Assembly: GCA_965659025.1 (NCBI GenBank)
Contig: CBFHTW010000002.1
Span: forward strand, 1-53,957
DNA length: 53,957 nucleotides
Direction: 5' to 3'
Source of the DNA: Minisyncoccia bacterium
GTDB taxonomy: Bacteria; Patescibacteriota; Minisyncoccia; Phycocordibacterales; UBA2100
Numbering within the stretch: the first letter of the stretch is position 1; every line of letters starts with the position of its first letter. Both the position numbers and the translations under genes were made by a program. This document shows, in pieces, positions 1,571-47,759 of the stretch. Below the pieces are notes generated by a model, which saw nothing but the letters and a program-made list of their open reading frames with translations, did no database searches and was not told the origin of the DNA.

Positions 1571-2407
1571 TTATTTCCGGAGGTTTTCATCTAACGTGTT
1601 TCCAGCGTCATCCTTCCATGCAGTCCATCCGTTGATTGGTCTGCCTGTTGTGGTTGCTGCTGCAGCCGAAGGACTTTTAAAAAGCACATTCTTTGTATAA
1701 ACGTAGGAAGCACCATCTCCATTATCAGTAAAAGTACCGTCCTCCAAAAATCGCTTGCGTGCGGCTTGTGACCAACCAAAAAATGATTCTGTTTCTCTGA
1801 TTCTTGCAAGCGAACCCTTAAGAACATTTAGGCTTCCGTCTGCAAGCAACTGAGCCTTTGCGTCCGCACCTTCTGCTTTCAAGTGATACAACTTTGCATC
1901 CGAAATTGATTCGGCTACCGTTTCAAAAACTTCATAACCAATAGCACCTAAAACAAATTGTACGTTTTCAAAATATTGTTCGACGATAACTTTCTCGCTC
2001 TCCGAGAGTGTATTTTCCTGCGGTTGAACTTTATTCTGCACAACCATACGATCAGCATCGTGTGCCATAGTAGTCGCTCTGTATTCCAAATACTTAACAA
2101 AAGCTCGGTTGAGTCCTCCCGTAAAAATTACCGCGATATTCCAAAAATCCTTGTTTGAATCGTGATTAGCAATTCGACTATAAAAATTTTCTGATTCACC
2201 GATATAAACTAGCTCATCCGAAGATCCCTCATCAACACCAAATAAAAGGTAGAGACCTGGCTGGTTTATCTCTGAACGATCTTTTAATTCCCTTAGATTT
2301 TGTCGAGGAACGATAAAACACTTACCAGACCACCCAGGTAGTTCAATGATTTTCATTCCGTTGGGATTTCCCTCCGGAACTAACATTTGTATGACCTTTG
2401 ACTTCAT
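1571..2407 (-). CDS. GIY-YIG nuclease family protein with DUF4357-like C-terminal domain
   Basis: Carries the GLYLLFG...LVYIGESENFYSRIANH core (GIY...YIG...R...N pattern). The C-terminal part (FKSPSAAAATTTGRPINGWTAWKD) resembles the DUF4357 extension. Confidence 0.65.
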   Translation of the reverse strand: MKSKVIQMLVPEGNPNGMKIIELPGWSGKCFIVPRQNLRELKDRSEINQPGLYLLFGVDEGSSDELVYIGESENFYSRIANHDSNKDFWNIAVIFTGGLNRAFVKYLEYRATTMAHDADRMVVQNKVQPQENTLSESEKVIVEQYFENVQFVLGAIGYEVFETVAESISDAKLYHLKAEGADAKAQLLADGSLNVLKGSLARIRETESFFGWSQAARKRFLEDGTFTDNGDGASYVYTKNVLFKSPSAAAATTTGRPINGWTAWKDDAGNTLDENLRK

Positions 2408-2465
2408 AAAGTGATTGTACAGCTTCTCGATGCTCCTCGGAATACAGTTCTATACGAAGAAACAG

Positions 2466-3023
2466 TTACATTCCTAAAATACTACTTTTGTTGGAAATAT
2501 TAGTTTTTGAACTATTGATTGATCTGAACTCAATATGTTTATTTATACCAGGAACTTTTAAAATTTCTTCTTCAGTTGTAGAAGATTCAAAATTTTTTAT
2601 GGCCAGTTCACATCTCTGTAAAAAAGAAACCAACTCGATCTCTTCAACTTTATCTTCTGCATTTATAATAAACGGTTGACCCTTACCATCTCCTCTTGAT
2701 ATTCTTCTGCCTTCAATTAGTACACCATTGTGTAAAAAAGCATTTCTATATGCTTCGTATAAGTCTTTCGATGCTTTAGTGCTTATGGATATATCGCCAA
2801 ATATTTTACTAGCCAAAATTGTAAAATGCTCAGGTGAATTCGATTTGACAATATCAATTATATCAATAATACATAATAGTAACGTCGCTGTCGGGAACCC
2901 TAATACATCTTGTTTTGTATAACCTTCCCCAACTTCAGGAGAGGATTTTATACAAATCCTTGCAGCCGTCAAATACTCATTCAAAACATTAATGACTGTT
3001 TGTTTATAATTTTTTGTCAACAT
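2466..3023 (-). CDS. hypothetical protein with a possible HEPN-like R-x4-H motif
   Basis: 185-aa AT-rich ORF that fills the gap between its neighbours. I recognise no family. It contains YRNAFLHN (R-x4-H). Confidence 0.45.
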   Translation of the reverse strand: MLTKNYKQTVINVLNEYLTAARICIKSSPEVGEGYTKQDVLGFPTATLLLCIIDIIDIVKSNSPEHFTILASKIFGDISISTKASKDLYEAYRNAFLHNGVLIEGRRISRGDGKGQPFIINAEDKVEEIELVSFLQRCELAIKNFESSTTEEEILKVPGINKHIEFRSINSSKTNISNKSSILGM

Positions 3024-9654: not shown

Positions 9655-9729
9655 TGGAGCCGACCCGGGGATTTGAACCCCGAACCTACGGTTTACGATA
9701 CCGTTGCTCTACCGTTGAGCTAGGTCGGC
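9655..9729 (-). tRNA. tRNA-Thr (anticodon CGT), CCA encoded
   Basis: Cloverleaf: GCCGACC/GGTCGGC acceptor, ACGGT-ATCGTAA-ACCGT anticodon arm, CGGGG-TTCAAAT-CCCCG T-arm, then T-CCA. Confidence 0.9.
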
Positions 9730-9746
9730 AATGCACTGCGAATATA

Positions 9747-10214
9747 TCATACTTTTGATTTGTTGCGATATTTCCTCCTAAGTACTTTTCCTTCTTGTGC
9801 TCGCTTACTGAGTGCGCGGTGCGGCCTCCCATTACCGCGATTTAATCCCGCAAATGTTGGACTTAGTGCATCACAATTGGGACAGAGTAGGCGAAGGTTG
9901 CTTTCAATATTGTTTCGCCAATTACCATCAATATGGTCGGCCACTAATGGAACCTCCCCGGTTCTTGTATTTATCTTTGACCAGCCGCATATACAACACT
10001 TATTCCCAAATTTTTTACGCAAATATATTTTTATGGAGGTGGAGACCACGCCAATACTTTGTAAGCCAAGGATCTCCCCGTCCTGCCATTTCTTTATGTA
10101 CATTTGTCGCTGGTATTCAAGTTGGCATACGTTGCTACAATACTTGTAGTAGGAGCGATCTGGCTCCTTTCCACAACGTAAACATGGTGTGCGAGGTTTC
10201 TTCAGATGAACCAT
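9747..10214 (-). CDS. HNH endonuclease
   Basis: CxxC...CxxC zinc knuckles and ADHIDGNWRNNIESNLRLLCPNCDA (the H-N-H core). It is AT-richer than the flanking DNA. Confidence 0.8.
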   Translation of the reverse strand: MVHLKKPRTPCLRCGKEPDRSYYKYCSNVCQLEYQRQMYIKKWQDGEILGLQSIGVVSTSIKIYLRKKFGNKCCICGWSKINTRTGEVPLVADHIDGNWRNNIESNLRLLCPNCDALSPTFAGLNRGNGRPHRALSKRAQEGKVLRRKYRNKSKV

Positions 10215-10292
10215 GCAGGCATCATACCATGGTATCTATATAAAAATGGTCTGCAGTTGATTGAGACACGCACACATCGGAGCTCTTTGAAA

Positions 10293-10336
10293 CTTGAGTC
10301 TCTATTAAAACACGCTCGAACCTATGTTAGCCAGCA
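10293..10336 (+). repeat. inverted repeat A (left end of element; attL-like arm)
   Basis: cttgagtctctattaaaacacgctcgaacctatgttagccagca matches the reverse complement of 17153-17196 at 43/44 positions. Weaker similarity (ttgacttc...gcacg) continues inward for ~25 nt. Confidence 0.9.
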
Positions 10337-11192
10337 TTCTGATTGACTTCGCACGCTCCGCGTGCGTGGTGGCTTGCAACTTTTTCGTACGCCCCGCTCG
10401 CGCGGTGACTCTCCGGCGCGCGGAGTACCGCGTCGCCGGTCGCCGCCCCCACCGATGGATGGCCGGGCCACCCGTTCTTTGCCCATTCGTTTTCCCCCGC
10501 CGATTTTTCATGCATGAGGAAAAGAACGGGTGTCCGGCCTCCTGTTTTTCGTGGGGGGCGGCGCAAACCCCGAACGGCTCACTTCTTCCCATTTGAGCCG
10601 TTGGCTTTAAAGAAGTGAGCCGTTCGATGCGGAATCCTGAGCCGTTGCGAATGGCTCAGGATAGCAAGTTGATGAGCCGTTGAACGGCTCAAGAAAATGC
10701 AGAACTCAAATCCAAGTGGTGCCTTCGTTCATGCTATTTGGTGGCGTCCAGCCCATGGGGTCCATCCTCGGCATCCGCCTCGGACATTTCCGCTAGGGCT
10801 ACTCGGGCCTAGATGTCTAGGTAGCGTGCTTTTCCTCGCCAGTGCCGCCTGCGGGCGGCTGGCTCGGGCACGCAACTGTTTGGGGGGAGGAAGGAATCCT
10901 CCCCCCAGCTCCTCCTCGCCTCGCGCGTCCGCTTCGCGGCGCGCCCGGCAGAGCCGGGCAGGGCTCGGCCAACCGTCGTCGCCAACCCCCATCCTCGTTT
11001 TCAAAAGTGTGTTCGTGGCAAGATTCTTGAGTCCGTTTTGCAAACTAACGGCGGCGCTCATCCAAGGGCGTGGACGCCCTAGCGGAAATGTCCGAGGCGC
11101 GAAGCCGATGCGCTTGCCCCACACCACCCATGCGCGCGCAAACCCGCCGTCTCCAGCTTGCTTCGCGCCGGAGACGGCGGGGCTCCCCGTGG
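10337..11192. other. GC-rich, helix-dense noncoding region (candidate large structured RNA and/or origin-like region)
   Basis: ORFs here are only Arg/Pro/Gly-rich frames typical of noncoding GC-rich DNA. It holds many long perfect stems, including a 22-bp long-range pair (10778-10799 with 11076-11097), 12+6 bp (10461-10480 with 10521-10539) and 17 bp (10571-10587 with 10610-10626). Confidence 0.5.
10571..10691. repeat. iteron-like array of TGAGCCGTT
   Basis: Direct copies lie at 10594, 10616, 10638 and 10673 (spacings 22, 22 and 35 bp). Inverted copies AACGGCTCA lie at 10573 and 10683, with an imperfect one at 10650. Confidence 0.8.
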
Positions 11193-11663
11193 TCAGTACT
11201 TAAAATCCCCCGTACCTTTTCCTTTCTCCTCGTCGTTATACTCGCTCCGAAACTTCTTCCACGATTTCTCCAGCCGGAACATCTTCACGCGAGAGTCGGT
11301 ATATCTTCCGATGATGTCGTCTACAAGCCCCTGGTCGAATTTTGAGCCGTACAGGCCTTTCACATGTTCGAGGTAGACGACCATCTTGTTCGCACCAGCC
11401 ATCGCTTTTTCCAAATATCCGACGCCGAGCGCGAAGTCCGCGAATCGTAGCGAATGAGCTTCGGCGACCAGAAGCGGCACGGACATCGCACAATCCACCA
11501 GCCGCTCGGCATACGCATATTTCTGCCGCACGAGATTCGGCATCAAATCTTTCGATATCAACACGGCGCACTCAATAGTTTTTTGGTAGATTTCGAGATC
11601 GCGAAACGTGCGGACAGGTTTTTTTGGCTTAAACGAATATTGCTTCTTGTCGTAGTACGCCAT
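11193..11663 (-). CDS. four-helix-bundle protein (23S rRNA IVS protein / Avd-like family)
   Basis: The N-terminal FRDLEIYQKTIECAVLISKDL and predicted all-helical composition match the four-helix-bundle (PF05635-like) family. Confidence 0.7.
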   Translation of the reverse strand: MAYYDKKQYSFKPKKPVRTFRDLEIYQKTIECAVLISKDLMPNLVRQKYAYAERLVDCAMSVPLLVAEAHSLRFADFALGVGYLEKAMAGANKMVVYLEHVKGLYGSKFDQGLVDDIIGRYTDSRVKMFRLEKSWKKFRSEYNDEEKGKGTGDFKY

Positions 11664-11672
11664 ACAGGATAG

Positions 11673-13034
11673 TCAGACTATCGTAACTTTTTCCGCGCCC
11701 TCGCGCGGCACCACTGCCTTCGTGCCATCTTTAAAGTGCACGATGCGCTTGCGCTTCGTTTTGCCGGCTTTGTTTTTGCTCTGGAGTTTCTTAACGACAT
11801 GCAGCGGGAAGAACTGGTAGTAATCTTTCTCGTCGAACCATGCGCAGGTGAATTCAAAGAGGCGCAATCCAGTGAGGCGCGAGAGCGCGAGCGCGTACCA
11901 GGTCAGCTGCTCGATCGGCCGCTCTTTTGCGGCCTTCGGCTTGTAATCGAGGATGTGCACTTGGCCGTTCCGTATTTGCACGATGTCGATGTGGCCGGTT
12001 AAAAGCCGCGGCAATGACTCTTCTTGCTTGCCGCCCTTGAATTTTACGAGCCCGTTGTCCGTCACCTTGAAATTCAACACGTTCTCCATATGCGCTACAT
12101 CCTCGCGACGGATAAACACCGGCACCTCCGTCGCGACGGTCACGCTGTCGTTCGCGAGGAAAAAACGCTGCACCGCCTCGTGCCGCTCCTTGTTTTCCGG
12201 TACCGCCTGCAAGACAAACGCCGCGAGGCGGTTGGCGTAGTTCGTCTTCGATTTCACTATCATGTCGGCCGTGTCGAATTTCGACCGCACGTCGCTCATG
12301 CGCTCGCCGTCGGCGAAATACTGATGCGGCGTCTCGCTCGATACCGCGTCGAGATATTCCTTCACGCGCTTCAGATTACGGTTCTTGAATTCCTCCAGCA
12401 TGAGCCGCGTCTTTGCGCGGTGATAGCGAAAACGATAGAGCTGCCGGTGCGCCATAGTAACGACCTCCACCATATCCTTCGGGCGATACATTTTCGTCGC
12501 GTACGGCCGCAACCGCTCAAAGCGGCACAGCTGCTTGTGCTCCTCGATCCACGCGGACAAAGTTTCTGGTTCCGGCGCGACACCGAATTTCTTTTTCAAG
12601 ATCGCGCACGTTTCTTCCAGAGTGAGACCGAGATTGTAGTAGCTCATGCCTTCGATCACAATGCGGAGCGGAAACTGCTTGCCTTTCAGATCCTGTGCCG
12701 TGAACGTGCGGCCGCAATCGGGAAGATTTTTGCACAGGTACAGCTGTACTTGTTGGTGTTTGTTCTTCCGCACGCCGCGCTTTACGAATTTTGTCGAGTC
12801 GCAGTACGGGCAGCGTTCGGCTCCGCGTTGGCGGAAGTTATTTTCCGATTGGTCGACAGATTCTGGTCCTGGTTTTTCTTCGGGATTCGGGGATTCAGCG
12901 TAAACCGACTTTACAGCGTCGGCACTGGAGCGACTAGCCATATCACGGCCTTCCGAGGTAAAAATCTCACGAGTTTCCCGCTTTTTCGAGTTTACCCCCG
13001 CTATTCGTGATATGAACGCGAGCAGTTTTTTCAT
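11673..13034 (-). CDS. zinc-ribbon + HTH + C-terminal PD-(D/E)xK (RecB/Cas4-like) nuclease domain protein
   Basis: CPYCDSTKFVKRG...LYLCKNLPDCGRTF is an IS1-type Zn ribbon. GHIDIVQIRNGQVHILDYKPK has the D...D/E-x-K pattern, followed by QLTWYALAL (the Q-x3-Y of RecB-family nucleases). Confidence 0.6.
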   Translation of the reverse strand: MKKLLAFISRIAGVNSKKRETREIFTSEGRDMASRSSADAVKSVYAESPNPEEKPGPESVDQSENNFRQRGAERCPYCDSTKFVKRGVRKNKHQQVQLYLCKNLPDCGRTFTAQDLKGKQFPLRIVIEGMSYYNLGLTLEETCAILKKKFGVAPEPETLSAWIEEHKQLCRFERLRPYATKMYRPKDMVEVVTMAHRQLYRFRYHRAKTRLMLEEFKNRNLKRVKEYLDAVSSETPHQYFADGERMSDVRSKFDTADMIVKSKTNYANRLAAFVLQAVPENKERHEAVQRFFLANDSVTVATEVPVFIRREDVAHMENVLNFKVTDNGLVKFKGGKQEESLPRLLTGHIDIVQIRNGQVHILDYKPKAAKERPIEQLTWYALALSRLTGLRLFEFTCAWFDEKDYYQFFPLHVVKKLQSKNKAGKTKRKRIVHFKDGTKAVVPREGAEKVTIV

Positions 13035-13039
13035 GGTTT

Positions 13040-16000
13040 TTACTCCGTCGCAGGAGTTTCGGCGGACGCGGTGTTTTCGGCTGGAGGAGACTCCGGCGCA
13101 GCGTCTTGGGTCGGAATTTCTGCTTCCTCAGGCTCGGATGTTGGCGCGACCAATTCGGTTTCGGCTTCTGGTTCGGTGGGTGCGACAACTTCGGCAGGGG
13201 TCTCTTCAACACTCTCATTCTCGCCAGATTCCGCGAGCTGCTCCTCTTGCGCAGGCACAGGGCTTGGAGCCGGAGGAGGAGGCGGCGTCGAGGAAGGGCT
13301 TGCGGCGGCAGCGCCACCGAGCTGTGATTTGAGGGCAGAGACCTCGGCTTCAAGTTGTTCGATGCGTTCGTCGTGCCCCTGTAAACGCTCGAAAATAAGG
13401 GCTATTTTCTCGCCATATTCCTGCATCTTCACCCACATCTCCTGCATCGCAGAGATGATGAGTGGAATGAATTTATCGTAATCAAGCTGGAAGTACTGCA
13501 CCTCTTCGTCGCCCACGGTCTCAAGGGAAAGCGCTTCGGGAAGGATGGGCATCACTTCCTGCGCGATGAGACCGATGGAGCGCGTGGAAGAGGCGTAGCG
13601 GCCAAGCGTGGGCCAGTGCGAGAGCACTTCCGGATCGGACGCCCGCCAGTCGAAGGCGACGGGATTCAGAGCAAGCACGGCGGCAAGCGAGCTACTTGCC
13701 GACAGTGACGTGATATTGGTCTTGAGGCGTTCATCCGATTCGTTTGCGATGCACGAGGAGGCGGTGTCGTCGCTGTTGGTGTCGACGCAGACGCTTCCAC
13801 CCTTCACTTCCACTTTTCCTTCGTTGGGATTCGTCGTCCCGATGCCGACGTTGCCGCCGCTGAGAATTGTCATTCTTTCCGTGCTATTTGTTCCAAAATG
13901 AAGACCAGTGTTTTCATAATTCCAGACCCAAGCATCTTCAGTAGCCCCCAAAAGAATTTGGAACCCGTCACCGGAAGTAACGCCCGTATCTGCATTAGTT
14001 AGTTGTAGTCGAGCACCCTCATTGGAGCTAGTTTCATGGACGTGCAGTTTCCAAGCCGGGTTCGTCGTACCTATGCCGACGTTGCCGCCACCCCCTTGTA
14101 AAACTAAATTACGCCATCCGCTGGTTGCCTGAAGTGCCTGCAACCAACTATAATCACCATCGTGTACTCCAAACTCCAACTTATTATCTGAATAAATTCC
14201 AGTGCCCGTTGTGATTGCAAAAATACCCTCTGCTCCAGATCCAGTAGGAACAACACTGCTCGTGCCAGTAACCGATAACTTTTGCAATGGACTCGTCGTC
14301 CCGATGCCGACGTTGCCTAAGCTGTCGATGCGCATGCGTTCTGTTATTGTTCCAGCCGCATTACTGGTCCACAGTGCGAACGCGCCACCACTTCCGCTCC
14401 CATCTGCTTGACCTTTGATGATCCCGAAACGTGTCGTGGTAGCCGATGTGTAAAAATTGATGTTGGTAGACCCGACACCGACGAGTCCCAACGTTTGTTG
14501 GTCGTTACTGCTGACAAGTGCGGCGTTCGTTTGCCCCAGCCCATATCCGTATGTCCCCACAGAAAGGAGCGATTGCGGCGTCGTCGTCCCGATGCCGACG
14601 TTGCCACTACCTTTATTCACGACCAGCTGCCCGCTGTTCACATTCAAACCGTAATCGCTTGCAGAGTTGTAGAATTGGCTGAAATCTGAAAAACCATACG
14701 ATGTCCCCTTATAAAATCGAAGTGCACTATATGAACCTACTGCGTCTGAACTGTCAGAAATATGCATCTTCGCCAATGGCCCTGTCGTCCCGATGCCGAC
14801 GTTGCCGCTCGTCGCGATGTACAAGGAAGACGTGGCAGAAAGCGTGTCGGTGCCTGAGAAATACGGGAATTGTCCTGTCGTTCCGGTGATGGGGGCGAGG
14901 TAGTCGGTGCCGGCGACGGCTGCGGTGAGCGCGCTTGAGCCGTTGCCTTTCAGAAGACCGGTGAGCGTTGAGAATATCGGAGCGGCGGAGAACGTTTGCG
15001 CCTGGCTCCAGGTGTTCGCCGTGGTCGTGCCGAACGCGAGCGAGAGCGTGCGGTCGGCGGAGAGGTCGCCGCCGCCTTGGAGCGGATACGTGGTCGAGAT
15101 AAGCCGTGTGCTGTTCGCGGGCGTAAAACCGAGTGCCGCTTGCTTGCTGTTGAAAGTCGTCCAGTCGGCCGACGAGAGGAAGCCACTCGTGCTGCCGGAC
15201 GACTGGGCAACTTGAATCGTCGCGCCTCCGCCGAGAAGCGCATCCGTGCCGCCGGTTATGGTGAGGATGGACGAGCCTGTCTCGGTGAGAGAGCCGCGCG
15301 TGGTGGTGGAAACCGCGCCAGAGCCGTTGCCGAGCAGCACCGTGCCGCTCGCGAGATTGGCCCAGCCGGTGCCGCCGTTGCCCACGGGGAGTATGCCGGT
15401 GACGTTGGACGCGAGGTCCACAAGTGCAGTGGAGAGTACACCTGCCGTCGCTTTGAGGAACCCCGTGAGCGCGGTCGAGACGGTCGAGAGGCCTCCGAGC
15501 GTCGTGATATTCGGGAGCGAAGTCGTCGCCGAAAGCCGATTGTCGAAACGGATATTGGTCCAGTAGAGATTCGTGCTTCCTTCGTCGAGTGCGTCGGTGG
15601 TCGTCGCGTACCAATTCGTGAGAGTGAGACGTGCGTCGAGCGCCGCTTGCAAGTCGGCCTGATCGGAGAGCGTGCCGGTGATAGAGCCCCACGCGGAAGC
15701 GCCCCCTCCCCCGCCGATGCAGACGCCGTTCACCGCGAAGCAGCCGCTCGCAAGATTGAAGCCATTGGCAGCGGTCGAGGTCGCGCTGCCGGTGAGATTG
15801 AATCCTGTGGCCTGCACTCCTCCAACAAATGTGGAGGTGGAGGTGTTGGTGGAGACAAGATTGGTGACGGTGGTCGTGCCCGCCGAAAGCGTTCCGGCGC
15901 CCACGATGTTGCCCGCGCCGTCTATCGTAGTCGTCGCCGTGCCGCCGAAGTACGCGGTGCCGAAGTTGGAGAAACGAGTCGAAGATGCGCCGGCGGAAAA

Positions 16001-16879
16001 GAGTTGGAGCGCAGTCCACGTATTCGCGTCGGAGAGCGATGCGCCGCTGCCGCCCGTGATGCCGAGCGAACTGGTCGCGGTGAGCGCGTAGCCGCCTGCG
16101 CCGTCGCCGACGAGCACCTGACCGTATGCGGGCGCCGAAGTGGTGCCGGTACCCCCTTGACTGACTCCGATGGTACCGGAGAATGCCGTCGCCATGACGG
16201 AGCCGCCGGTGATGGTGGGGTTGGTAATCGTGACGTTGGAGAGATTGTCGATGCGTTGCGATTGCGCGACGGCGTTGTATACGGCGGAGGTCTGCGCACT
16301 CTGCGCCGACCCTTGCGAGAAGATAAGCGAGCGGAGTTTGTTTTCAAGACCATTCAATCGGTCGGCGAGAGCGTTTTCCGAAATACCGCCCTGCGTGACG
16401 ACGCGCTCTGTTTCCACGACACGTTCAATAACGGGCTGTTGTATTGTCTGATATACGATTGCCTGTCCCGTTTGAGGTCGTGATGGACTCTCTAATGGGG
16501 TGGTCGTCGCAATAGCGGCGAGAGGCTGGGGCGCAAGGACAGCGGGTACTTCTACGAAGCCATCTCCCGCGGCCACAGGGTACGCGTCCGTGCTATTGCC
16601 AAAAAGACGTCCGAAGAAATCGCGGAGCGTCTCCGCTGCATTCGAGAACGCGCCGCTCGCCGAAGCGACGAGTGCGGGCCGCGAGTCACTCACTGACGCC
16701 GGAGCTGCGGCGAACCCAATGGCGGTCGCGGTGAGAGGGATGGCGATAATCATCGCTGCTACCCAGGAAAGTACCCCCCTTTCACGATTCTTTTTGTGCA
16801 CCTCTGACGCGTGCCAATCTTCCGTCGCGCGGATGGCGTCACGTACCGAAAAAAGCTTACGCTCGTCGCGCGAATTCAT
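13040..16879 (-). CDS. giant membrane-anchored tail-fibre-like surface protein with C-terminal intramolecular-chaperone (peptidase S74-like) domain and Pro/Glu/Thr-rich tail
   Basis: The start is trimmed to MNSRDERK (ATG at 16879), followed by a TM helix. It has five GNVGIGTT modules. SDERLKTNI...LNPVAFDWR...GLIAQEV...LDYDKFIPL is the endosialidase-chaperone/tail-fibre signature. A coiled coil and a low-complexity PAPS/EE tail follow. Confidence 0.75.
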   Translation of the reverse strand: MNSRDERKLFSVRDAIRATEDWHASEVHKKNRERGVLSWVAAMIIAIPLTATAIGFAAAPASVSDSRPALVASASGAFSNAAETLRDFFGRLFGNSTDAYPVAAGDGFVEVPAVLAPQPLAAIATTTPLESPSRPQTGQAIVYQTIQQPVIERVVETERVVTQGGISENALADRLNGLENKLRSLIFSQGSAQSAQTSAVYNAVAQSQRIDNLSNVTITNPTITGGSVMATAFSGTIGVSQGGTGTTSAPAYGQVLVGDGAGGYALTATSSLGITGGSGASLSDANTWTALQLFSAGASSTRFSNFGTAYFGGTATTTIDGAGNIVGAGTLSAGTTTVTNLVSTNTSTSTFVGGVQATGFNLTGSATSTAANGFNLASGCFAVNGVCIGGGGGASAWGSITGTLSDQADLQAALDARLTLTNWYATTTDALDEGSTNLYWTNIRFDNRLSATTSLPNITTLGGLSTVSTALTGFLKATAGVLSTALVDLASNVTGILPVGNGGTGWANLASGTVLLGNGSGAVSTTTRGSLTETGSSILTITGGTDALLGGGATIQVAQSSGSTSGFLSSADWTTFNSKQAALGFTPANSTRLISTTYPLQGGGDLSADRTLSLAFGTTTANTWSQAQTFSAAPIFSTLTGLLKGNGSSALTAAVAGTDYLAPITGTTGQFPYFSGTDTLSATSSLYIATSGNVGIGTTGPLAKMHISDSSDAVGSYSALRFYKGTSYGFSDFSQFYNSASDYGLNVNSGQLVVNKGSGNVGIGTTTPQSLLSVGTYGYGLGQTNAALVSSNDQQTLGLVGVGSTNINFYTSATTTRFGIIKGQADGSGSGGAFALWTSNAAGTITERMRIDSLGNVGIGTTSPLQKLSVTGTSSVVPTGSGAEGIFAITTGTGIYSDNKLEFGVHDGDYSWLQALQATSGWRNLVLQGGGGNVGIGTTNPAWKLHVHETSSNEGARLQLTNADTGVTSGDGFQILLGATEDAWVWNYENTGLHFGTNSTERMTILSGGNVGIGTTNPNEGKVEVKGGSVCVDTNSDDTASSCIANESDERLKTNITSLSASSSLAAVLALNPVAFDWRASDPEVLSHWPTLGRYASSTRSIGLIAQEVMPILPEALSLETVGDEEVQYFQLDYDKFIPLIISAMQEMWVKMQEYGEKIALIFERLQGHDERIEQLEAEVSALKSQLGGAAAASPSSTPPPPPAPSPVPAQEEQLAESGENESVEETPAEVVAPTEPEAETELVAPTSEPEEAEIPTQDAAPESPPAENTASAETPATE

Positions 16880-17152
16880 TGCATATATTGTATCAGTTTT
16901 CCGTGGTCGGGAAACGCAATCTCCCAGTATTAGATGTGAACAAATTGTGGGCCAATTTAAGGCATTTGCCCCCGCCCCGCCGCCCATTCCGCACATTGCA
17001 TTCCCCCGCGAGATTGAAAATGGTGGAGAGCGGCGGGGCGGGAAGAAATACCACGAGGTCGAATCGGACCACTCCAGTACAAAGCCACCACGCGCGCGGA
17101 GCGCGCGCCTGCCCGTCCGTAGCCTCGTGCGAAGGCGGGAAGTCAAGCGTCG

Positions 17153-17196
17153 TGCTGGCTAAAATAGGTTCGAGCGTGTTTTAATAGAGACTCAAG
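17153..17196 (-). repeat. inverted repeat A' (internal copy)
   Basis: The reverse complement matches 10293-10336 at 43/44 positions. Confidence 0.9.
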
Positions 17197-17344
17197 AATC
17201 AAACTCAAAGGGGTTTCGGAAGGCGCAAAACGCGCGGCGCGAAGCGCCGCGTAGGGGGGAATGGGATTTCCGCGCGCTTCGCGCGTCGAAGAGGTTCAAA
17301 AAATACAAATCCGAAAACTTTTTGGAGGGGGTTTTTGGAGGGGA
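17197..17344 (-). repeat. inverted repeat B' (internal copy, contiguous with A')
   Basis: The reverse complement aligns with 19565-19717 over ~150 nt, with a few indels. Shared blocks include cccctccaaaaagttttcgg, cgcgcgaagcgcgcggaaatcccattcccccctacgcggcgc and tttgattcttgag. Confidence 0.85.
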
Positions 17345-17442
17345 AATGCAAATACACAGTGGAGTGCTTGGCCCACCCTCCCGTCCGCGCACGAATACCA
17401 TTCGCTGAAAACAGTGTAATCAGCGAATCTCCCTTAAACGCA

Positions 17443-17461
17443 GAAAAGCCCCGCAGGGCTC
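17443..17461 (-). terminator. Rho-independent terminator-like hairpin downstream of the DUF3800 gene
   Basis: On the minus strand: AGCCC-TGCG-GGGCT followed by TTTTCT. Confidence 0.45.
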
Positions 17462-17563
17462 TTCTTGACTGCCTGTGTTTCGGCGACGGAACACGTCGCT
17501 TACGTGCGATACGCTCCGCACAGGACTGACATCACAGTTATTATAGCCGAAATGGGGCTGAAA

Positions 17564-18208
17564 TCAAGATGAAGATGGGGTGCTGTGGATACTCGGATTT
17601 TGCCCGAATTTGCTTTGGGGAAAGCGGATAGATTCGCTGATCGTGAGCATATTGTAAAAATGGCTCGCCCCGTAGTTGTAGTGTGCCCAAATTGCGTTCG
17701 CAATCACATCGGCCGCTTGTACGATCTTCGAATGCTCGGAATTGGTGTACGAAAGCTGGAGATTGTGCTGGTATCCGAACTGGGTATAGGCCTTTATCTT
17801 GATGTAATCGGCAAGCGAGTTGATGGAGCCCACTTTTGTCGAGTGATTGTCGAGCAGAATGCACAAATCCGTTGGCGTGCTTTTGATTGTTTTCTTTACC
17901 AGGAATGAGAAAAGGTAGTTGTAGCAGAGATTTTTATCCTCAAAGAGTTTTTTGTTGTCGATGTTGTGCTTGTCCGAGACGATGTACGAGACAGTGTAGT
18001 CGTTCGCACTGCATAGTTTGTTGAAAATCTCTTGCTTTTGCGGGAAAGACAATCGACTCGCTTTCACTTCTTTGAGATTATGACGGGCGCAAAACTTCCG
18101 CATGAGATTCACGATGCGCTTGCTCTGGTGCGGTGCGAGCAGTACAAGAACGAAGTAACGGTCCTTCGCCCCTAGATTGCCAGACTCGTCAACAAACAGG
18201 GTCTTCAT
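17564..18208 (-). CDS. DUF3800 domain protein
   Basis: MKTLFVDESGNLG N-terminus (the DESG hallmark). The start is trimmed to the ATG at 18208. It is AT-richer than its surroundings. Confidence 0.7.
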   Translation of the reverse strand: MKTLFVDESGNLGAKDRYFVLVLLAPHQSKRIVNLMRKFCARHNLKEVKASRLSFPQKQEIFNKLCSANDYTVSYIVSDKHNIDNKKLFEDKNLCYNYLFSFLVKKTIKSTPTDLCILLDNHSTKVGSINSLADYIKIKAYTQFGYQHNLQLSYTNSEHSKIVQAADVIANAIWAHYNYGASHFYNMLTISESIRFPQSKFGQNPSIHSTPSSS

Positions 18209-18229
18209 ACAAGATATATAATACCGTGT
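18209..18229. promoter_or_regulatory. 21-bp divergent intergenic region with TATATATAAT box
   Basis: acaagatatataataccgtgt. TATAAT (18217-18222) lies 7 nt before the recombinase ATG, which suggests leaderless transcripts. Confidence 0.35.
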
Positions 18230-19777
18230 ATGCGTTACTTCCTCTACGCCCGCAAAAGTACCGATGTTGAGGATAAACAAGTCCTTTCCATCGAAGCGCA
18301 ACTCGCAGAGTTGCGCGCGATCGCGCGAAAAGATGAGCTAGAGATTGTAGAAGAATTGGTCGAAAAGAAATCCGCAAAGATTCCAGGTCGCGCGATATTC
18401 AGCGACATGATGTCGCGTATTGGCCGCGGCGAGGCGCAAGGAATTATTTGCTGGAAGATAGATCGCCTCGCGCGAAATCCCGTAGACGGCGGACAAGTGC
18501 AGTGGTTGCTGCAACAGGGTGTAATCAAACACATTCAAACGCATGACCGCTCGCACTATCCGAATGACAATGTATTGATGATGTCCGTCGAGCTTGGCAT
18601 GGCGAATGAGTATATTCGCCAGTTGAGCGCAAACACGGCTCGCGGTCTGCGGCAGAAAGCGCGACAAGGAATATATCCCGGCCTCGCCCCTATCGGCTAC
18701 TTGAATGACCCGCGCACCAAAACTATCCGCGTCCACAAAAAGAACGCCGCGCTTGTGCGCGAGATGTTTGAACGCTACGCGAATGGTGCAACGTTAAATG
18801 ACTTGGCGGTATTTCTTGAGAACGCTAGCGTGCTGTCCAAAGGAAATCGCCGCGTTCACATATCGCGTATCTCATTTATTTTGCAAAATCCGTTTTATTA
18901 CGGCCACTTCCGCTACGCGGGCGAGGTTTATAAAGGTAATCACTCGCCGCTCATTTCAAAATCACTTTTTGACAAAGCAAACGCGGTGCTTCGCAGACGC
19001 GGCCGGACGCTCGCGGTCACAACCGATCCCGCGCCGCTGTGCGGCCTTTTGCGCTGCGGCTTCTGCGGCATGGGCATCACGGTCGAAGTGAAAGAGAAGC
19101 ACCAGAAAAACGGCAATATTCACCACTACACCTACTATCGCTGTACTCGCAAAAACAAGGCCGTGAAATGCAAAGAAGCGCCGATGCGAAGCGAAGTTTT
19201 AAACTCCCAACTTTCGGCGCTTCTTGGCGAGTACGCCATGCCGCAAGAATGGATATCGCCTTTATCGGCGATGCTTGATATGGAAGCAGCTAGCGCCTCC
19301 AAAACGGCGGCGGAGGCCGTTCGAGGACTGCGGGACAAAGTTTTTGATATTTCCAACAAACTTGAACGTCTTACGGATTTATATGTGGCCGAGGATATTG
19401 AACGTGAGGATTATTTGTCCCGCCGCCGCGCTCTCATTGGAGAGCGCCGGACGATTGAAGAACAAATCGTCCATCTTGAACGATCCCCCGCCGCGTGGGT
19501 TGAACCTGTCAGAAACTGGATACAAGACGCTTCGCGTCTTGATGAAATATCCAAATCAGAAGACATCCCCTCCAAAAAATCCCCCCTCCAAAAAGTTTTC
19601 GGATTGAACCTCAGAATCCACGCGCGCGAAGCGCGCGGAAATCCCATTCCCCCCTACGCGGCGCTCCGCGCCGCGCGCATTTCGGCCTCTGAAAAACCGT
19701 TAAATTTGATTCTTGAGCCGATGGCCGGAATTGAACCGGCGACCTACTCCTTACCATGGAGTTGCTCTACCATCTGA
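18230..19777 (+). CDS. large serine recombinase (resolvase domain + recombinase domain + zinc ribbon + coiled coil)
   Basis: YARKSTDVEDKQVLSIEAQ holds the catalytic Ser region, then DRLARN. CGLLRCGFCG...YYRCTRK is the zinc ribbon. The C-terminal ~70 codons run through repeat B and antisense to tRNA-Thr. Confidence 0.85.
   Translation: MRYFLYARKSTDVEDKQVLSIEAQLAELRAIARKDELEIVEELVEKKSAKIPGRAIFSDMMSRIGRGEAQGIICWKIDRLARNPVDGGQVQWLLQQGVIKHIQTHDRSHYPNDNVLMMSVELGMANEYIRQLSANTARGLRQKARQGIYPGLAPIGYLNDPRTKTIRVHKKNAALVREMFERYANGATLNDLAVFLENASVLSKGNRRVHISRISFILQNPFYYGHFRYAGEVYKGNHSPLISKSLFDKANAVLRRRGRTLAVTTDPAPLCGLLRCGFCGMGITVEVKEKHQKNGNIHHYTYYRCTRKNKAVKCKEAPMRSEVLNSQLSALLGEYAMPQEWISPLSAMLDMEAASASKTAAEAVRGLRDKVFDISNKLERLTDLYVAEDIEREDYLSRRRALIGERRTIEEQIVHLERSPAAWVEPVRNWIQDASRLDEISKSEDIPSKKSPLQKVFGLNLRIHAREARGNPIPPYAALRAARISASEKPLNLILEPMAGIEPATYSLPWSCSTI
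19565..19717 (+). repeat. repeat B (right end of element; attR-like arm abutting tRNA-Thr)
   Basis: Inverted copy of 17197-17344. It ends in gattCTTGAG, immediately followed by the tRNA acceptor stem. Confidence 0.85.
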
Positions 19778-19788
19778 GCTACATCGGC
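19716..19788 (-). tRNA. tRNA-Thr (anticodon GGT), CCA not encoded
   Basis: GCCGATG/CATCGGC acceptor, ACTCC-ATGGTAA-GGAGT anticodon arm, GCCGG-TTCAATT-CCGGC T-arm and discriminator T. The 3' trailer is CAAG. Confidence 0.9.
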
Positions 19789-46994: not shown

Positions 46995-47759
46995 ATGAAG
47001 AACACATTCTGGATCGTGTCAAATTATGTTGGTTATCTTTTCGGAAGAAAGTTCTTTGCTCCTATTCACCACGCAATGATAAATCTGTCCTTGCACGGCC
47101 TTGGATACGACAATATGTATTACGATGCCTGGACTGGTGAAGAATGGTTTATCAAAAACATTCTTGTCCAAAATAATCCTCGTGTATGTTTGGATATTGG
47201 TGCAAATGTAGGAAAATTTTCAGAACTGCTGTTGAAGTATACCCAGGCTAAAATTTATGCGGCAGAGCCGTCGCCATCTTCTTATAAAGAGCTAAAGAGG
47301 TTGGACAGTAGGGTGATTCCTATACAAACCGCTATCGCAGATTTTGATGGCAATGCATTTTTGCACTCAAAGACGCCGACAGATACACGTGCATCGTTGG
47401 ATAAAAATGTGAGGGGGGGGGTAGAAACAGAGGTCCCGGTCTCAACTATCCAGAGTCTAGGGGTACTGTACAATATTGAAGAAATCGATTTTATAAAAAT
47501 AGATACGGAAGGATACGAAAGAGAAGTTTTGAAGGGTCTTGGATCTTATAGGCCGAAGTTTATACAGTTTGAATTTGCTCTCCATCACCTGTATAGGAAT
47601 TGCACAATTTATGAACTCACACAATTATTACCCGAGTACGAATTCTACAGATTGTTGCCTCATGGCTGGTTGAAGATTAACCCTAAAAAATATTTGGATA
47701 ATATTTTTATGCTGTGCAATATTGTGGCTGTTAAGAAAGATAGCGACCGAGATGCCTAA
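46995..47759 (+). CDS. FkbM-family methyltransferase
   Basis: CLDIGANVGKFS...FIKIDTEGYEREVLKG. It is clearly AT-richer than the flanking DNA. Confidence 0.8.
   Translation: MKNTFWIVSNYVGYLFGRKFFAPIHHAMINLSLHGLGYDNMYYDAWTGEEWFIKNILVQNNPRVCLDIGANVGKFSELLLKYTQAKIYAAEPSPSSYKELKRLDSRVIPIQTAIADFDGNAFLHSKTPTDTRASLDKNVRGGVETEVPVSTIQSLGVLYNIEEIDFIKIDTEGYEREVLKGLGSYRPKFIQFEFALHHLYRNCTIYELTQLLPEYEFYRLLPHGWLKINPKKYLDNIFMLCNIVAVKKDSDRDA

What the first reader, a model, noticed from the sequence alone, without database searches (positions are those of the whole stretch)
17153..17344. An internal inverted copy of the reconstructed attP creates nested inverted repeats around both the cargo module and the recombinase module
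The ~190-nt block A'B' is the reverse complement of B (19565-19717, ~150 nt, high identity with a few indels) joined to A (10293-10336, 43/44). This gives two abutting inverted-repeat pairs. A/A' brackets 6.9 kb holding the noncoding region, the Avd-like gene, the nuclease gene, the giant surface-protein gene and its upstream region. B'/B brackets 2.4 kb holding the DUF3800 and recombinase genes. Serine recombinases of the Hin/Gin/Cin type invert DNA between such repeats, classically to switch phage tail-fibre genes. Here a tail-fibre-like gene lies inside one of the candidate invertible segments. Inversion would not change either junction sequence, so a single assembly cannot reveal it. Alternatives are a relic of a nested or rearranged second integration, or a repeat-induced assembly artefact.
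Basis: partly seen in the sequence, partly recalled or inferred. Interest (0 to 1): 0.8.

Follow-up and report, generated by a model that had tools for sequence, protein, structure and literature searches.

The report
Spare inverted attP in recombinase island
The 190-base block is a built-in second, inverted attachment site found in most members of a large family of tRNA-inserting mobile islands in tiny "candidate phyla" bacteria. It matters because ordinary serine-integrase elements carry only one such site, and here the extra one splits each island into two segments that are occasionally found flipped.

Summary

The recombinase is a 515-aa large serine recombinase (LSR), not a Hin/Gin invertase. 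Its attP crossover lies in its own last codons (…LILE|). Integration next to tRNA-Thr(GGU) therefore leaves B fused to the tRNA (attR) and A 9.4 kb away (attL).

The internal block is a complete attP-type site, made of an inverted copy of about 50 LSR tail codons plus A. It is not a one-off relic.
- 57 of 78 related Patescibacteria loci have the B'/B repeat.
- All 14 loci with enough flank have the full layout: X·A, cargo, A'·B', LSR, B·tRNA.
- The two copies co-vary within a locus.

Both bracketed segments occur flipped in near-identical relatives. The one crossover that could be mapped lies inside a repeat arm, which points to homologous recombination rather than the LSR core.

Orientation is strongly biased (62 LSR→tRNA against about 5), so a fast Hin-like switch is unlikely.

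Verdict: this is a real, conserved architecture that I did not find described, and a new variant of LSR elements. Its function is unresolved.

The parts
10286..10375 (+). S1 = attL-type junction (X|A). The core TTTGAAACTTGAG is at 10286-10298. The A arm follows: it encodes the native LSR end SLLKHARTYVSQHSD*, then a GC hairpin.
   Evidence: GAACC lies at position 20 after the crossover, as in all 26 A arms examined.
10299..17190 (.). Cargo arc (6.9 kb) bracketed by A/A'. It holds an ~800-nt non-coding region, an Avd-like ORF, a PD-(D/E)XK nuclease, and a 1368-aa surface protein with a Peptidase_S74 domain.
   Evidence: Cargo content is almost entirely different in related islands.
17082..17203 (-). 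A' arm of the internal site S2. It is an inverted copy of A: 88% over 65 nt, then a 32-nt indel, then 26 nt at 92%.
17191..17344 (-). B' arm of S2. It is an inverted relic of the last ~50 LSR codons: …REARGNPIPPYAALRAARFAPSETPLSLILE|SLLKHARTYFSQHDA*. A ~10-nt insertion (TGTATTTTTT) breaks the frame at the position of IFG|LNL.
17357..17446 (+). Conserved structured motif that always sits beside the B' relic. It has a P1 stem, an invariant loop TTGnCCCACCCnCCCGTnCG, a variable P2 hairpin, and CTCCC.
17564..18301 (-). DUF3800 accessory gene inside the recombinase arc. The likely true start is at 18208.
   Evidence: An 87%-identical copy occupies the same position in L072.
18230..19777 (+). Large serine recombinase, 515 aa. 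Its ORF runs through B and ends inside the antisense tRNA-Thr gene. A TATAAT box lies 8 nt before the ATG.
19565..19717 (+). B arm, the true LSR tail coding region, ending at the core. Together with the tRNA it forms S3, the attR-type junction (B|Y).
19715..19788 (-). tRNA-Thr(GGU), the integration target. It is the attB-type Y arm, with GAACC at position 16 after the crossover.
9655..9729 (-). Neighbouring tRNA-Thr(CGU). Related elements use it as a target, so it is a possible second attB for the spare attP.
11103..11190 (+). Second copy of the conserved structured motif. It lies at the inner end of the non-coding region and abuts the stop codon of the Avd-like gene.
   Evidence: Similar S1-proximal copies occur in L018, L019, L036, L061 and L072.

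Best explanation
The block is the second, still-intact attP-type attachment site (S2 = A'|B') of a 9.4-kb island. The island was inserted by a large serine recombinase (LSR) at the 3' end of tRNA-Thr(GGU).

Shown:
- In this family the attP crossover lies within the recombinase's own last codons (…L-I-L-E|).
- Integration leaves the B half fused to the tRNA (attR, 19717) and sends the A half to the far end (attL, 10298). The recombinase then ends in about 19 residues encoded by the antisense tRNA.
- The family also carries a built-in inverted duplicate of the B|A joint. It comprises about 50-65 tail codons, the stop codon, and 90-340 nt downstream, and it lies upstream of the recombinase module.
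- Every island is therefore X·A, cargo, A'·B', (defence-type accessory genes), LSR, B·tRNA. The variable cargo is bracketed by A/A' and the recombinase module by B'/B.
- The paired arms evolve in concert.
- Both arcs are occasionally found flipped in near-identical relatives.
- In the only mappable case the crossover lies inside the repeat arm, so it was homologous recombination.

Inferred:
- S2 is a functional component kept by selection, not debris.
- It keeps a complete attP inside the integrated island.
- Rare homologous flips of the recombinase arc re-join the recombinase gene to its native A-encoded end and stop codon, and place the relic against the tRNA. About 5-10% of relatives are in that state.
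- The spare attP could also recombine with a second tRNA attB nearby.
- The net effect is rearrangement and turnover of cargo next to tRNA genes. It is not a rapid on/off inversion switch.
- In this window the arms have drifted to 82-88% identity and the island is in the common orientation.
For: Site identity:
- The conserved GAAC[CT] motif lies at +20 in 26 of 26 A arms and at +16 in 13 of 13 tRNA arms. This mirrors the 5-bp inward shift of the ZD motif in attB relative to attP described for LI integrase (PMC3783163).
- X·A abuts conserved chromosome: prfB, or tRNA-Thr(CGU) and the HNH ORF.

Family conservation:
- tblastn finds an inverted tail copy in about 60 of 78 loci.
- blastn finds the B'/B inverted repeat in 57 loci, at 72-100% identity.
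- 45 inverted copies are in attP form, against 62 LSR tails fused to a tRNA.
- The far X·A junction is present in all 14 loci that have enough flank.
- A/A' spans 150-340 nt and is at least 95% identical in 9 of those 14 loci.

Concerted evolution: the variable tail residues are identical between the two copies within a locus but differ between loci.

Assembly breaks: 25 contigs end inside A', and four contigs are bounded by the tail repeat at both ends (L040, L042, L045, L046).

Flips:
- L079 3523-6096 equals rc L081 3497-6070 at 100% identity.
- L085 2212-4991 equals rc L087 5225-8006.
- Arm SNPs place the L087 crossover between the insertion and a SNP 70-110 nt from the core.

Flipped state: the relic is fused to a complete tRNA in L047, L049, L067 and L080, and to a tRNA fragment in L006.

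Some LSR proteins carry the native tail: P0043, P0044, P0058, P0066, P0085 and P0093.
Against: - No read data or sibling genome exist for this island, so its activity here is untested.
- The selective function of S2 is inferred, not shown.
- A few relatives lack S2: the P0109-type element in L085, and L029, L060, L062, L063, L071 and L073. The family can therefore do without it.
- In L011 and L037 the two copies belong to different lineages. That would also fit acquisition by recombination between elements.
- Canonical LSR rules give an integrated attP nothing to do unless a free attB is nearby.
- Relic-tRNA fusions can all be explained by homologous flips, so there is no proof that the LSR ever uses S2.
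- Only one crossover could be mapped.
Confidence: 0.6

Rival explanations
1. Programmed, recombinase-catalysed inversion switch. The serine recombinase itself inverts the cargo arc and/or its own arc at the att cores, Hin/Gin-like, to switch expression of cargo such as the tail-fibre-like surface protein.
For: - The junctions have opposite polarity, and each arc carries the same half-site at both ends. Inversion at the cores would therefore regenerate identical junctions.
- Both arcs occur in both orientations in relatives.
- In the L079/L081 flip the crossover lies somewhere between the core and +115 nt, so the core is not excluded.
- Genes at both ends of many cargo arcs read inward from the A arms.
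Against: - The enzyme is a 515-aa LSR, not a small invertase.
- Canonical LSRs recombine only attP with attB, or attL with attR when an RDF is present (PMC3783163). The half-site geometry here is canonical.
- The mapped crossover is inside the arm.
- The LSR arc is in one orientation in 62 loci against about 5.
- Homologous cargo genes keep one orientation in 3 of 3 and 5 of 5 cases.
- The surface-protein gene lies wholly inside the arc.
- The arms are 65-340 nt long, far more than a recombinase site needs.
Confidence: 0.12
2. RNA-level or operator role. The inverted tail copy and the adjacent conserved structured motif act as a regulatory module for the recombinase. Possible forms are an antisense or decoy RNA matching the LSR mRNA 3' end, or an LSR-binding operator. 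The inverted repeats would then be a by-product.
For: - A strongly conserved motif always flanks the relic. It gives 75 regex hits, shows P1 covariation, and moves with the LSR arc.
- Its G-rich strand is complementary to the CCCTCCAAAAAATCC…CCTCC stretch at the start of B. That stretch is conserved at the nucleotide level across the family.
- Co-variation of B and B' would follow from selection for complementarity.
- A promoter-like site on the minus strand at 17567→17540 reads toward the motif and relic.
- In loci without accessory genes, S2 lies only 150-300 nt upstream of the LSR start.
Against: - In the window the LSR has its own TATAAT 8 nt before the ATG, 900 nt from S2, so S2 is not in its mRNA.
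- No expression data are available.
- A regulatory role does not explain why A' is duplicated as well, or why A/A' is the better conserved pair.
- The motif also occurs away from S2.
- No Rfam family matches it.
Confidence: 0.15
3. Functionless passenger. A single ancient inverted duplication of the recombinase 3' end was inherited by the family and is merely homogenised by gene conversion. In this window it is decaying.
For: - In the window the arms are only 82-88% identical, with indels, and the relic is frameshifted.
- Some family members lack the copy.
- Inverted repeats a few kb apart are expected to undergo gene conversion without any selection.
Against: - The copy is retained with the same outer boundary (…D[LI]PSKK) across LSRs down to about 50% identity.
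- The core and the core-proximal half-sites are intact everywhere.
- Small genomes under deletion bias rarely keep 250-500 nt of useless repeat that promotes rearrangement.
Confidence: 0.12
4. Assembly artefact or a unique nested second integration in this genome.
For: Many related metagenome contigs break at this repeat, so assemblers do struggle there.
Against: - The arms in the window are too divergent to cause a mis-join.
- The identical architecture is present in dozens of independent assemblies.
Confidence: 0.01

Closest known systems
Large serine recombinase (serine integrase) elements: phiC31, Bxb1, A118/LI, SPbeta SprA
   Same: - Same domain set: Resolvase, Recombinase and Zn ribbon.
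- The closest solved structure is SPbeta SprA/YokA, aligned over residues 19-475.
- Integration produces hybrid attL and attR junctions around a short common core.
- The attB-type arm carries the recognition motif 4 nt closer to the centre than the attP-type arm, as described for LI integrase.
   Different: - These islands carry two attP-type sites in inverted orientation, not one.
- The primary attP lies inside the recombinase's own last codons, so its C-terminus changes on integration.
- The target is the extreme 3' end of tRNA genes (Thr, Arg, Phe, Val).
- No conserved RDF gene was seen.
Hin/Gin/Cin/Pin DNA invertases and phage tail-fibre switching
   Same: - A serine-family recombinase gene sits within or next to a segment bracketed by inverted repeats.
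- A tail-fibre-like gene lies in a bracketed segment.
- Both orientations are seen among relatives.
   Different: - The recombinase is about 515 aa, not about 190 aa with a C-terminal HTH.
- The arms are 65-340 nt copies of an att site and a gene end, not 26-bp hix/gix sites.
- No alternative C-terminal exons are present.
- The mapped crossover is homologous, inside the arm.
- Orientation is strongly biased.
SSV1/pTN3-type archaeal integrases, with attP inside the int gene and tRNA targets (PMC5495485)
   Same: - attP lies within the integrase ORF.
- Integration into a tRNA gene splits the gene.
- pTN3 integrase is linked to inversions between tRNA genes, and inverted attP substrates invert in vitro.
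   Different: - Those are tyrosine recombinases in archaea, and the int gene is truly disrupted.
- Here only about 15 C-terminal codons are exchanged and the ORF stays open through the antisense tRNA.
- Those elements have no built-in inverted attP duplicate.
Engineered phiC31 recombinase-mediated cassette exchange with inverted attP sites; yeast 2-micron Flp/FRT inverted repeats
   Same: Two inverted copies of a recombinase target divide a molecule into two arcs. Recombination between them flips the arcs without deleting anything.
   Different: - The first is an artificial design and the second uses a tyrosine recombinase (my own knowledge, plus search hits).
- No evidence here shows that the LSR exchanges cassettes, or that the flips serve replication.
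Tycheposons of Prochlorococcus (bioRxiv 10.1101/2020.12.28.424599)
   Same: Site-specific-recombinase elements (a minority with LSRs) that seed variable, defence- and cargo-rich islands at tRNA genes. They show tandem arrays and associated rearrangements.
   Different: - They are mostly tyrosine recombinases and are flanked by partial tRNA direct repeats.
- That paper does not describe an internal inverted attP or an overlap of attP with the recombinase tail.

Membership tests
Large serine recombinase integrative element | Recombinase has an N-terminal resolvase catalytic domain, a recombinase domain and a zinc-ribbon domain, and is about 450-700 aa long. | tested here: met
   Pfam hits: PF00239 (2.5e-19), PF07508 (6.7e-16) and PF13408 (4.9e-08). 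The protein is 515 aa. It aligns to SPbeta SprA over residues 19-475.
Large serine recombinase integrative element | The element is bounded by hybrid attL and attR sites that share a short core. Joining their element-side halves reconstructs attP. | tested here: met
   The core TTTGA[TT/AA]CTTGAG is present at both ends. B+A is colinear with the internal copy. X·A abuts conserved chromosomal genes in relatives.
Large serine recombinase integrative element | attP-type and attB-type half-sites carry the distal recognition motif at different distances from the crossover. In LI integrase it is about 5 bp closer in attB. | tested here: met
   GAAC[CT] lies at +20 in 26 of 26 A arms and at +16 in 13 of 13 tRNA arms. 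The rule is taken from PMC3783163.
Large serine recombinase integrative element | One attP per element. | tested here: not met
   A second complete attP-type site in inverted orientation is present here and in at least 45 relatives.
Large serine recombinase integrative element | Unidirectional attP x attB reaction, with excision requiring an RDF. | not testable with these tools
   No biochemical assay is possible. No conserved RDF-like gene was seen in recombinase arcs.
Hin/Gin/Cin-type DNA invertase switch | Small serine recombinase of about 180-200 aa with a C-terminal HTH. | tested here: not met
   The recombinase is a 515-aa LSR architecture.
Hin/Gin/Cin-type DNA invertase switch | Short (~26 bp) inverted crossover sites, with strand exchange at their centre. 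| tested here: not met
   The arms are 65-340 nt. The only mappable crossover lies 70-110 nt from the core.
Hin/Gin/Cin-type DNA invertase switch | Both orientations coexist in a population. | tested here: inconclusive
   Two orientation polymorphisms were found between assemblies of near-identical relatives. No read data exist for the window, and the overall bias is 62 to about 5.
Hin/Gin/Cin-type DNA invertase switch | Inversion swaps alternative tail-fibre C-termini or a promoter. | tested here: not met
   The surface-protein ORF (13040-17146, with its probable start near 16876) lies entirely inside the arc, and no alternative 3' cassettes are present.
SSV1/pTN3-type integrase partition | attP lies inside the integrase ORF, so integration splits the gene. 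| tested here: met
   The crossover falls after codon 496 (…LILE|). The reconstructed attP restores SLLKHARTYVSQHSD*. Family-wide tails are either tRNA-encoded or native.
SSV1/pTN3-type integrase partition | Tyrosine recombinase catalytic fold. | tested here: not met
   The domains are serine recombinase domains.
Shufflon-like multiple inversion system | Several adjacent segments are separated by inverted recombination sites and are found in several permutations. | tested here: inconclusive
   The window has two arcs, and L079 has a chain of three. Only single flips were observed, and the mechanism appears to be homologous recombination.

The most novel reading that the evidence does not exclude
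These islands are a natural two-attP serine-integrase system. The spare inverted attP lets the recombinase module and the cargo module be exchanged or re-targeted between tRNA sites, as a natural counterpart of inverted-att cassette exchange. The exchange of the recombinase's last 15-19 residues, between its native A-encoded tail and an antisense-tRNA-encoded tail, acts as a built-in directionality or activity switch that replaces a separate RDF. The adjacent conserved structured motif may take part.
Probability: 0.15. Interest if true: 0.85.

Novelty: new variant of a known kind. Interest (0 to 1): 0.65.

Why it matters
Serine integrases are valued because each uses one attP and one attB and works in one direction. 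This widespread family differs in three ways.
- It is widespread: thousands of homologues turned up in Patescibacteria metagenomes.
- The attP sits in the recombinase's own stop region.
- An intact, inverted second attP stays inside the integrated island.

If the spare site is functional, it would explain three observations.
- Cargo differs widely between islands with identical recombinases.
- The tRNA-Thr neighbourhood is a rearrangement hotspot in these reduced genomes.
- Metagenome contigs so often break there.

It would also provide natural templates for two-site LSR designs that target the universal tRNA T-loop. Even if the repeat only drives homologous flips, it is a defined and testable source of structural variation in organisms that cannot yet be grown alone.

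Tried and rejected
- **Chance or artefact.** Rejected on E-values and on arm divergence.
- **Unique relic.** Rejected after the scan of 78 loci.
- **Separating LSR-core crossover from homologous crossover.**
  - L079/L081 is uninformative, because the arms are identical for the first 115 nt from the core.
  - L085/L087 is informative and points to homologous recombination.
  - Relic-tRNA fusions in L047, L049, L067 and L006 could not be polarised.
- **More sibling contigs near the window's subfamily (P0012, P0014, P0003).** All of them end at or near the repeat, so they give no orientation information.
- **Rfam.** No family at gathering score covers the block or the flanking motif. There is only a weak DUF3800-I-like hit. 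Two further calls failed on size limits.
- **Is a MerR/HTH_17-like gene an RDF that replaces S2?** No. It co-occurs with S2 in L038 and L058.
- **Promoter and terminator scans around S1 and S2.** Nothing above shuffle expectation, except one promoter-like site at 17567→17540.
- **DGR reading of the 'Avd-like' gene.** Only a weak PF05635 hit was found, and no reverse transcriptase in the arc. I did not pursue it.
- **Literature.** Seven full-text searches found no description of this architecture. The library is incomplete, so prior description cannot be excluded.

Full report
**1.

The window contains three related sites.
- The repeat finder reports inverted repeats 17191-17285/19623-19717 (95 nt, 87%), 17308-17336/19577-19605 (93%), 10286-10350/17139-17203 (65 nt, 88%) and 10350-10375/17082-17107 (92%).
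- An alignment shows the reverse complement of 17060-17360 running colinear first with 19565-19717 (B) and then with 10286-10375 (A).
- The two meet at a 13-nt core, TTTGA[TT/AA]CTTGAG, which all three places share.
- blastn of the block against the 54-kb window gives E = 6.7e-38 for B'/B and 2.3e-18 for A/A'. There is no other copy.
- At 82-88% identity the arms are too different to produce an assembly mis-join.

**2. What the three sites are**

The target and the enzyme:
- tRNA-Thr(GGU) lies on the minus strand at 19715-19788, directly against B.
- The gene at 18230-19777 has Resolvase, Recombinase and Zn_ribbon_recom domains.
- Its closest solved relative is the SPbeta integrase SprA, aligned over residues 19-475.
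- It is therefore a large serine recombinase (LSR, an integrase), not a Hin/Gin-type invertase.

The recombinase tail:
- Its ORF runs through B and ends inside the antisense tRNA: …PLNLILE|PMAGIEPATYSLPWSCSTI*.
- Joining B to A in silico continues the frame as …PLNLILE|SLLKHARTYVSQHSD*.
- The internal copy encodes, on the minus strand, REARGNPIPPYAALRAARFAPSETPLSLILE|SLLKHARTYFSQHDA*. Its upstream part is thrown out of frame by a ~10-nt insertion.
- The attP crossover therefore lies in the recombinase's own last codons.

The three junctions are:
- 10298 = attL (X|A).
- 19717 = attR (B|tRNA).
- 17191 = a complete attP-type site (A'|B') in inverted orientation.

The half-site geometry fits this reading. 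A conserved GAAC[CT] lies 20 nt from the crossover in 26 of 26 A arms and 16 nt from it in 13 of 13 tRNA arms. Rutherford et al. describe an equivalent inward shift of the zinc-ribbon motif, by 5 bp, in attB relative to attP for LI integrase (PMC3783163). The motif corresponds to the tRNA T-loop, which may explain why family members use several tRNA species.

**3. It is a family hallmark, not a relic**

- The LSR has thousands of homologues in Patescibacteria/Paceibacteria metagenomes.
- Nearly all close homologues end in …LILE|P..GIEP.T..LP..CSTN*, meaning they read into a tRNA. A minority end in the native …LILE|SLLK.ARTYFS…*.
- In 78 related genome loci, tblastn finds an inverted tail copy 0.15-3.5 kb upstream of the LSR in about 60.
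- blastn finds the B'/B repeat in 57 loci: 150-170 nt at 72-100% identity, always ending at the crossover.
- 45 of the inverted copies are in attP form, while 62 LSR tails are fused to a tRNA.
- Every one of the 14 loci with enough left flank also has the far X·A junction, 1.8-9.4 kb away. This junction abuts conserved chromosome such as prfB.
- A/A' spans 150-340 nt and is at least 95% identical in 9 of those 14 loci.
- Within a locus the variable tail residues are the same in both copies, while they differ between loci. This is concerted evolution.
- L011 and L037 are exceptions, with copies from different lineages.
- The relic's outer boundary (…D[LI]PSKK) is constant down to about 50% LSR identity.
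- 25 contigs end inside the A' arm. Four short contigs (L040, L042, L045, L046) are bounded by the tail repeat at both ends. This is the expected signature of near-identical inverted repeats or of population heterogeneity.

Cargo arcs share almost no genes between loci. Recombinase arcs carry defence- or toxin-type accessory genes: DUF3800, AbiEii, AAA_15/21, HEPN, UvrD and DUF4238.

**4. Do the bracketed segments invert?**

Yes in relatives, but rarely, and apparently by homologous recombination.

- Two assemblies with the same LSR (L079 and L081) are colinear up to the A arm. They then match at 100% in reverse orientation over the 2.57-kb cargo arc including both arms.
- Those arms are identical for the first 115 nt from the core. 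The crossover could therefore be anywhere from the core to +115.
- The recombinase arc of a second element is inverted between L066/L084/L085/L089/L090 and L087.
- Here the arm SNPs are informative. The L087 arm next to tRNA-Thr(CGU) consists of the relic's distal part (with the insertion) joined to the core-proximal part of the true tail. This places the crossover 70-110 nt from the core, inside the arm.
- That is homologous recombination, not strand exchange at the LSR crossover.
- The flipped state has the relic against a tRNA and the LSR reading away with a native tail. It is seen in L080, L047, L049 and L067, and L006 has the relic against a tRNA fragment, against 62 loci in the common state.
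- Homologous cargo genes keep the same position and orientation in 3 of 3 and 5 of 5 cases.

This pattern fits occasional flips. It does not fit a fast phase-variation switch.

**5. Best explanation and what remains inferred**

Shown:
- the identity of the three sites;
- conservation of the architecture;
- concerted evolution of the arms;
- occurrence of flips, and one homologous crossover.

Inferred:
- The spare attP is maintained by selection.
- Its likely consequences are keeping a complete attP and the recombinase's native 3' end inside the integrated island.
- It allows rare homologous flips that re-join the gene to that end.
- It offers a substrate for recombination with a second tRNA attB. 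tRNA-Thr(CGU) lies 0.6 kb beyond attL at 9655-9729.
- LSR arcs flanked by two tRNAs exist in L087, and possibly in L006, where one flank is only a tRNA fragment.

I could not show that the LSR ever acts on S2. All relic-tRNA fusions can also be explained by homologous flips. In this window the arms have drifted and the island is in the common orientation.

**6. Rivals**

- **LSR-catalysed Hin-like switch.** It is disfavoured by enzyme class, canonical half-site geometry, the mapped crossover and the orientation bias. It is not excluded for the cargo flip.
- **Regulatory or RNA role.**
  - It is suggested by the conserved structured motif that always flanks the relic.
  - It is also suggested by that motif's complementarity to a nucleotide-conserved C-rich stretch at the start of B.
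  - The LSR, however, has its own TATAAT 8 nt before the ATG, 900 nt from S2.
- **Functionless inherited duplication.** This is possible, but hard to square with the intact cores and constant boundary across deep divergence.
- **Artefact or unique nested insertion.** This is rejected.

**7. Comparison with known systems and novelty**

- By domain content and att logic the element is an LSR integrative element. It fails the 'one attP' expectation.
- It adds an attP inside the recombinase's stop region. This is reminiscent of SSV1/pTN3 tyrosine integrases, whose attP lies in the int gene and which are linked to tRNA-associated inversions (PMC5495485).
- It works somewhat like the inverted-site designs used for cassette exchange, and like the 2-micron inverted repeats. 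No biochemical equivalence is shown.
- Seven literature searches found no description of this architecture.

I rate it a new variant of a known kind, with interest 0.65.

Noticed in passing
window 19717-19777, and the homologues: The recombinase ORF ends in about 19 residues encoded by the antisense strand of the tRNA gene (…EPMAGIEPATYSLPWSCSTI*). Nearly all close homologues do the same with various tRNAs, and stop in the conserved D-loop region. The integrated and free forms of the enzyme therefore differ at the C-terminus.
   Followed up: partly
window 17357-17446 (+) and 11103-11190 (+); 75 regex hits across loci: A strongly conserved structured motif.
- It has a P1 stem with GUGC/GCAC to ACAC/GUGU covariation, an invariant ~20-nt C-rich loop (UUGCCCCACCCnCCCGUGCG), a variable P2 hairpin, and an invariant CUCCC.
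- It always lies on the LSR strand, flips with the LSR arc, and usually abuts the stop codon of a minus-strand accessory gene.
- It folds better than shuffles on the minus (G-rich) strand.
- No Rfam family matches it.
   Followed up: partly
window 19560-19590, and all B / B' arms: The stretch CCCTCCAAAAAATCC(T/C)CCCTCCAAAAA (codons PSKKSxLQK) is conserved at the nucleotide level across the family, including synonymous positions. It marks the outer boundary of the repeat and is complementary to the G-rich strand of the motif loop.
   Followed up: no
window 17296-17310; relic copies in most loci: The inverted tail copy almost always carries a ~10-11-nt insertion (consensus about TTTGTATTTTCT) between GGATT and GAACCTC. 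The insertion breaks the reading frame. Ten loci with 99-100% identical arms lack it.
   Followed up: partly
window 10573-10690: Four direct copies and two inverted copies of GAGCCGTT within 120 nt of the ~800-nt non-coding region next to attL. They resemble iterons or protein-binding repeats.
   Followed up: no
window 10776-10799 / 11076-11099: A perfect 24-nt inverted repeat enclosing 276 nt in the same non-coding region (I5). It could be a long stem of a structured RNA or a small invertible segment.
   Followed up: no
window 17432-17545 (-) and 17567-17540 (-): A sub-threshold match to Rfam DUF3800-I RNA (23.8 bits against a gathering score of 44.2) lies just downstream of the DUF3800 gene. 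It is preceded by a good promoter-like site, TTGATT-16-TATAAT. DUF3800-associated RNA motifs have no known function (PMC5737381).
   Followed up: partly
window 9747-10214 (-); L020 3135-3563: An HNH-like ORF sits between tRNA-Thr(CGU) and attL. A 60%-identical copy occupies the equivalent tRNA-to-X·A spacer in L020.
   Followed up: no
L079 1-7910; L002 12275-21200; L066/L085: Islands pile up in tandem at neighbouring tRNA-Thr genes.
- L079 has a chain of three inverted-repeat-bracketed arcs. One is bounded by the tail relic of a different LSR subtype, with no recombinase body left.
- With an identical LSR (P0109), the upstream context differs widely between samples.
   Followed up: partly
window 13827-14833: Five in-register copies of a 56-nt unit (GG.TCGTCGTCCCGATGCCGACGTTGCC…), spaced 201-288 nt apart inside the 1368-aa surface-protein gene. 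They presumably encode repeated protein modules (D1).
   Followed up: no
window 1571-3023 and 46995-47759: Two low-GC patches (0.36-0.43) lie next to tRNA-Gln and tRNA-Ile. They carry a GIY-YIG/DUF4357 protein and an FkbM-type methyltransferase. They are probably other small insertions at tRNA genes.
   Followed up: no
L018 20517-20766 (-): A group I intron (Rfam RF00028, 71 bits) lies in a related locus, unconnected to the island.
   Followed up: no
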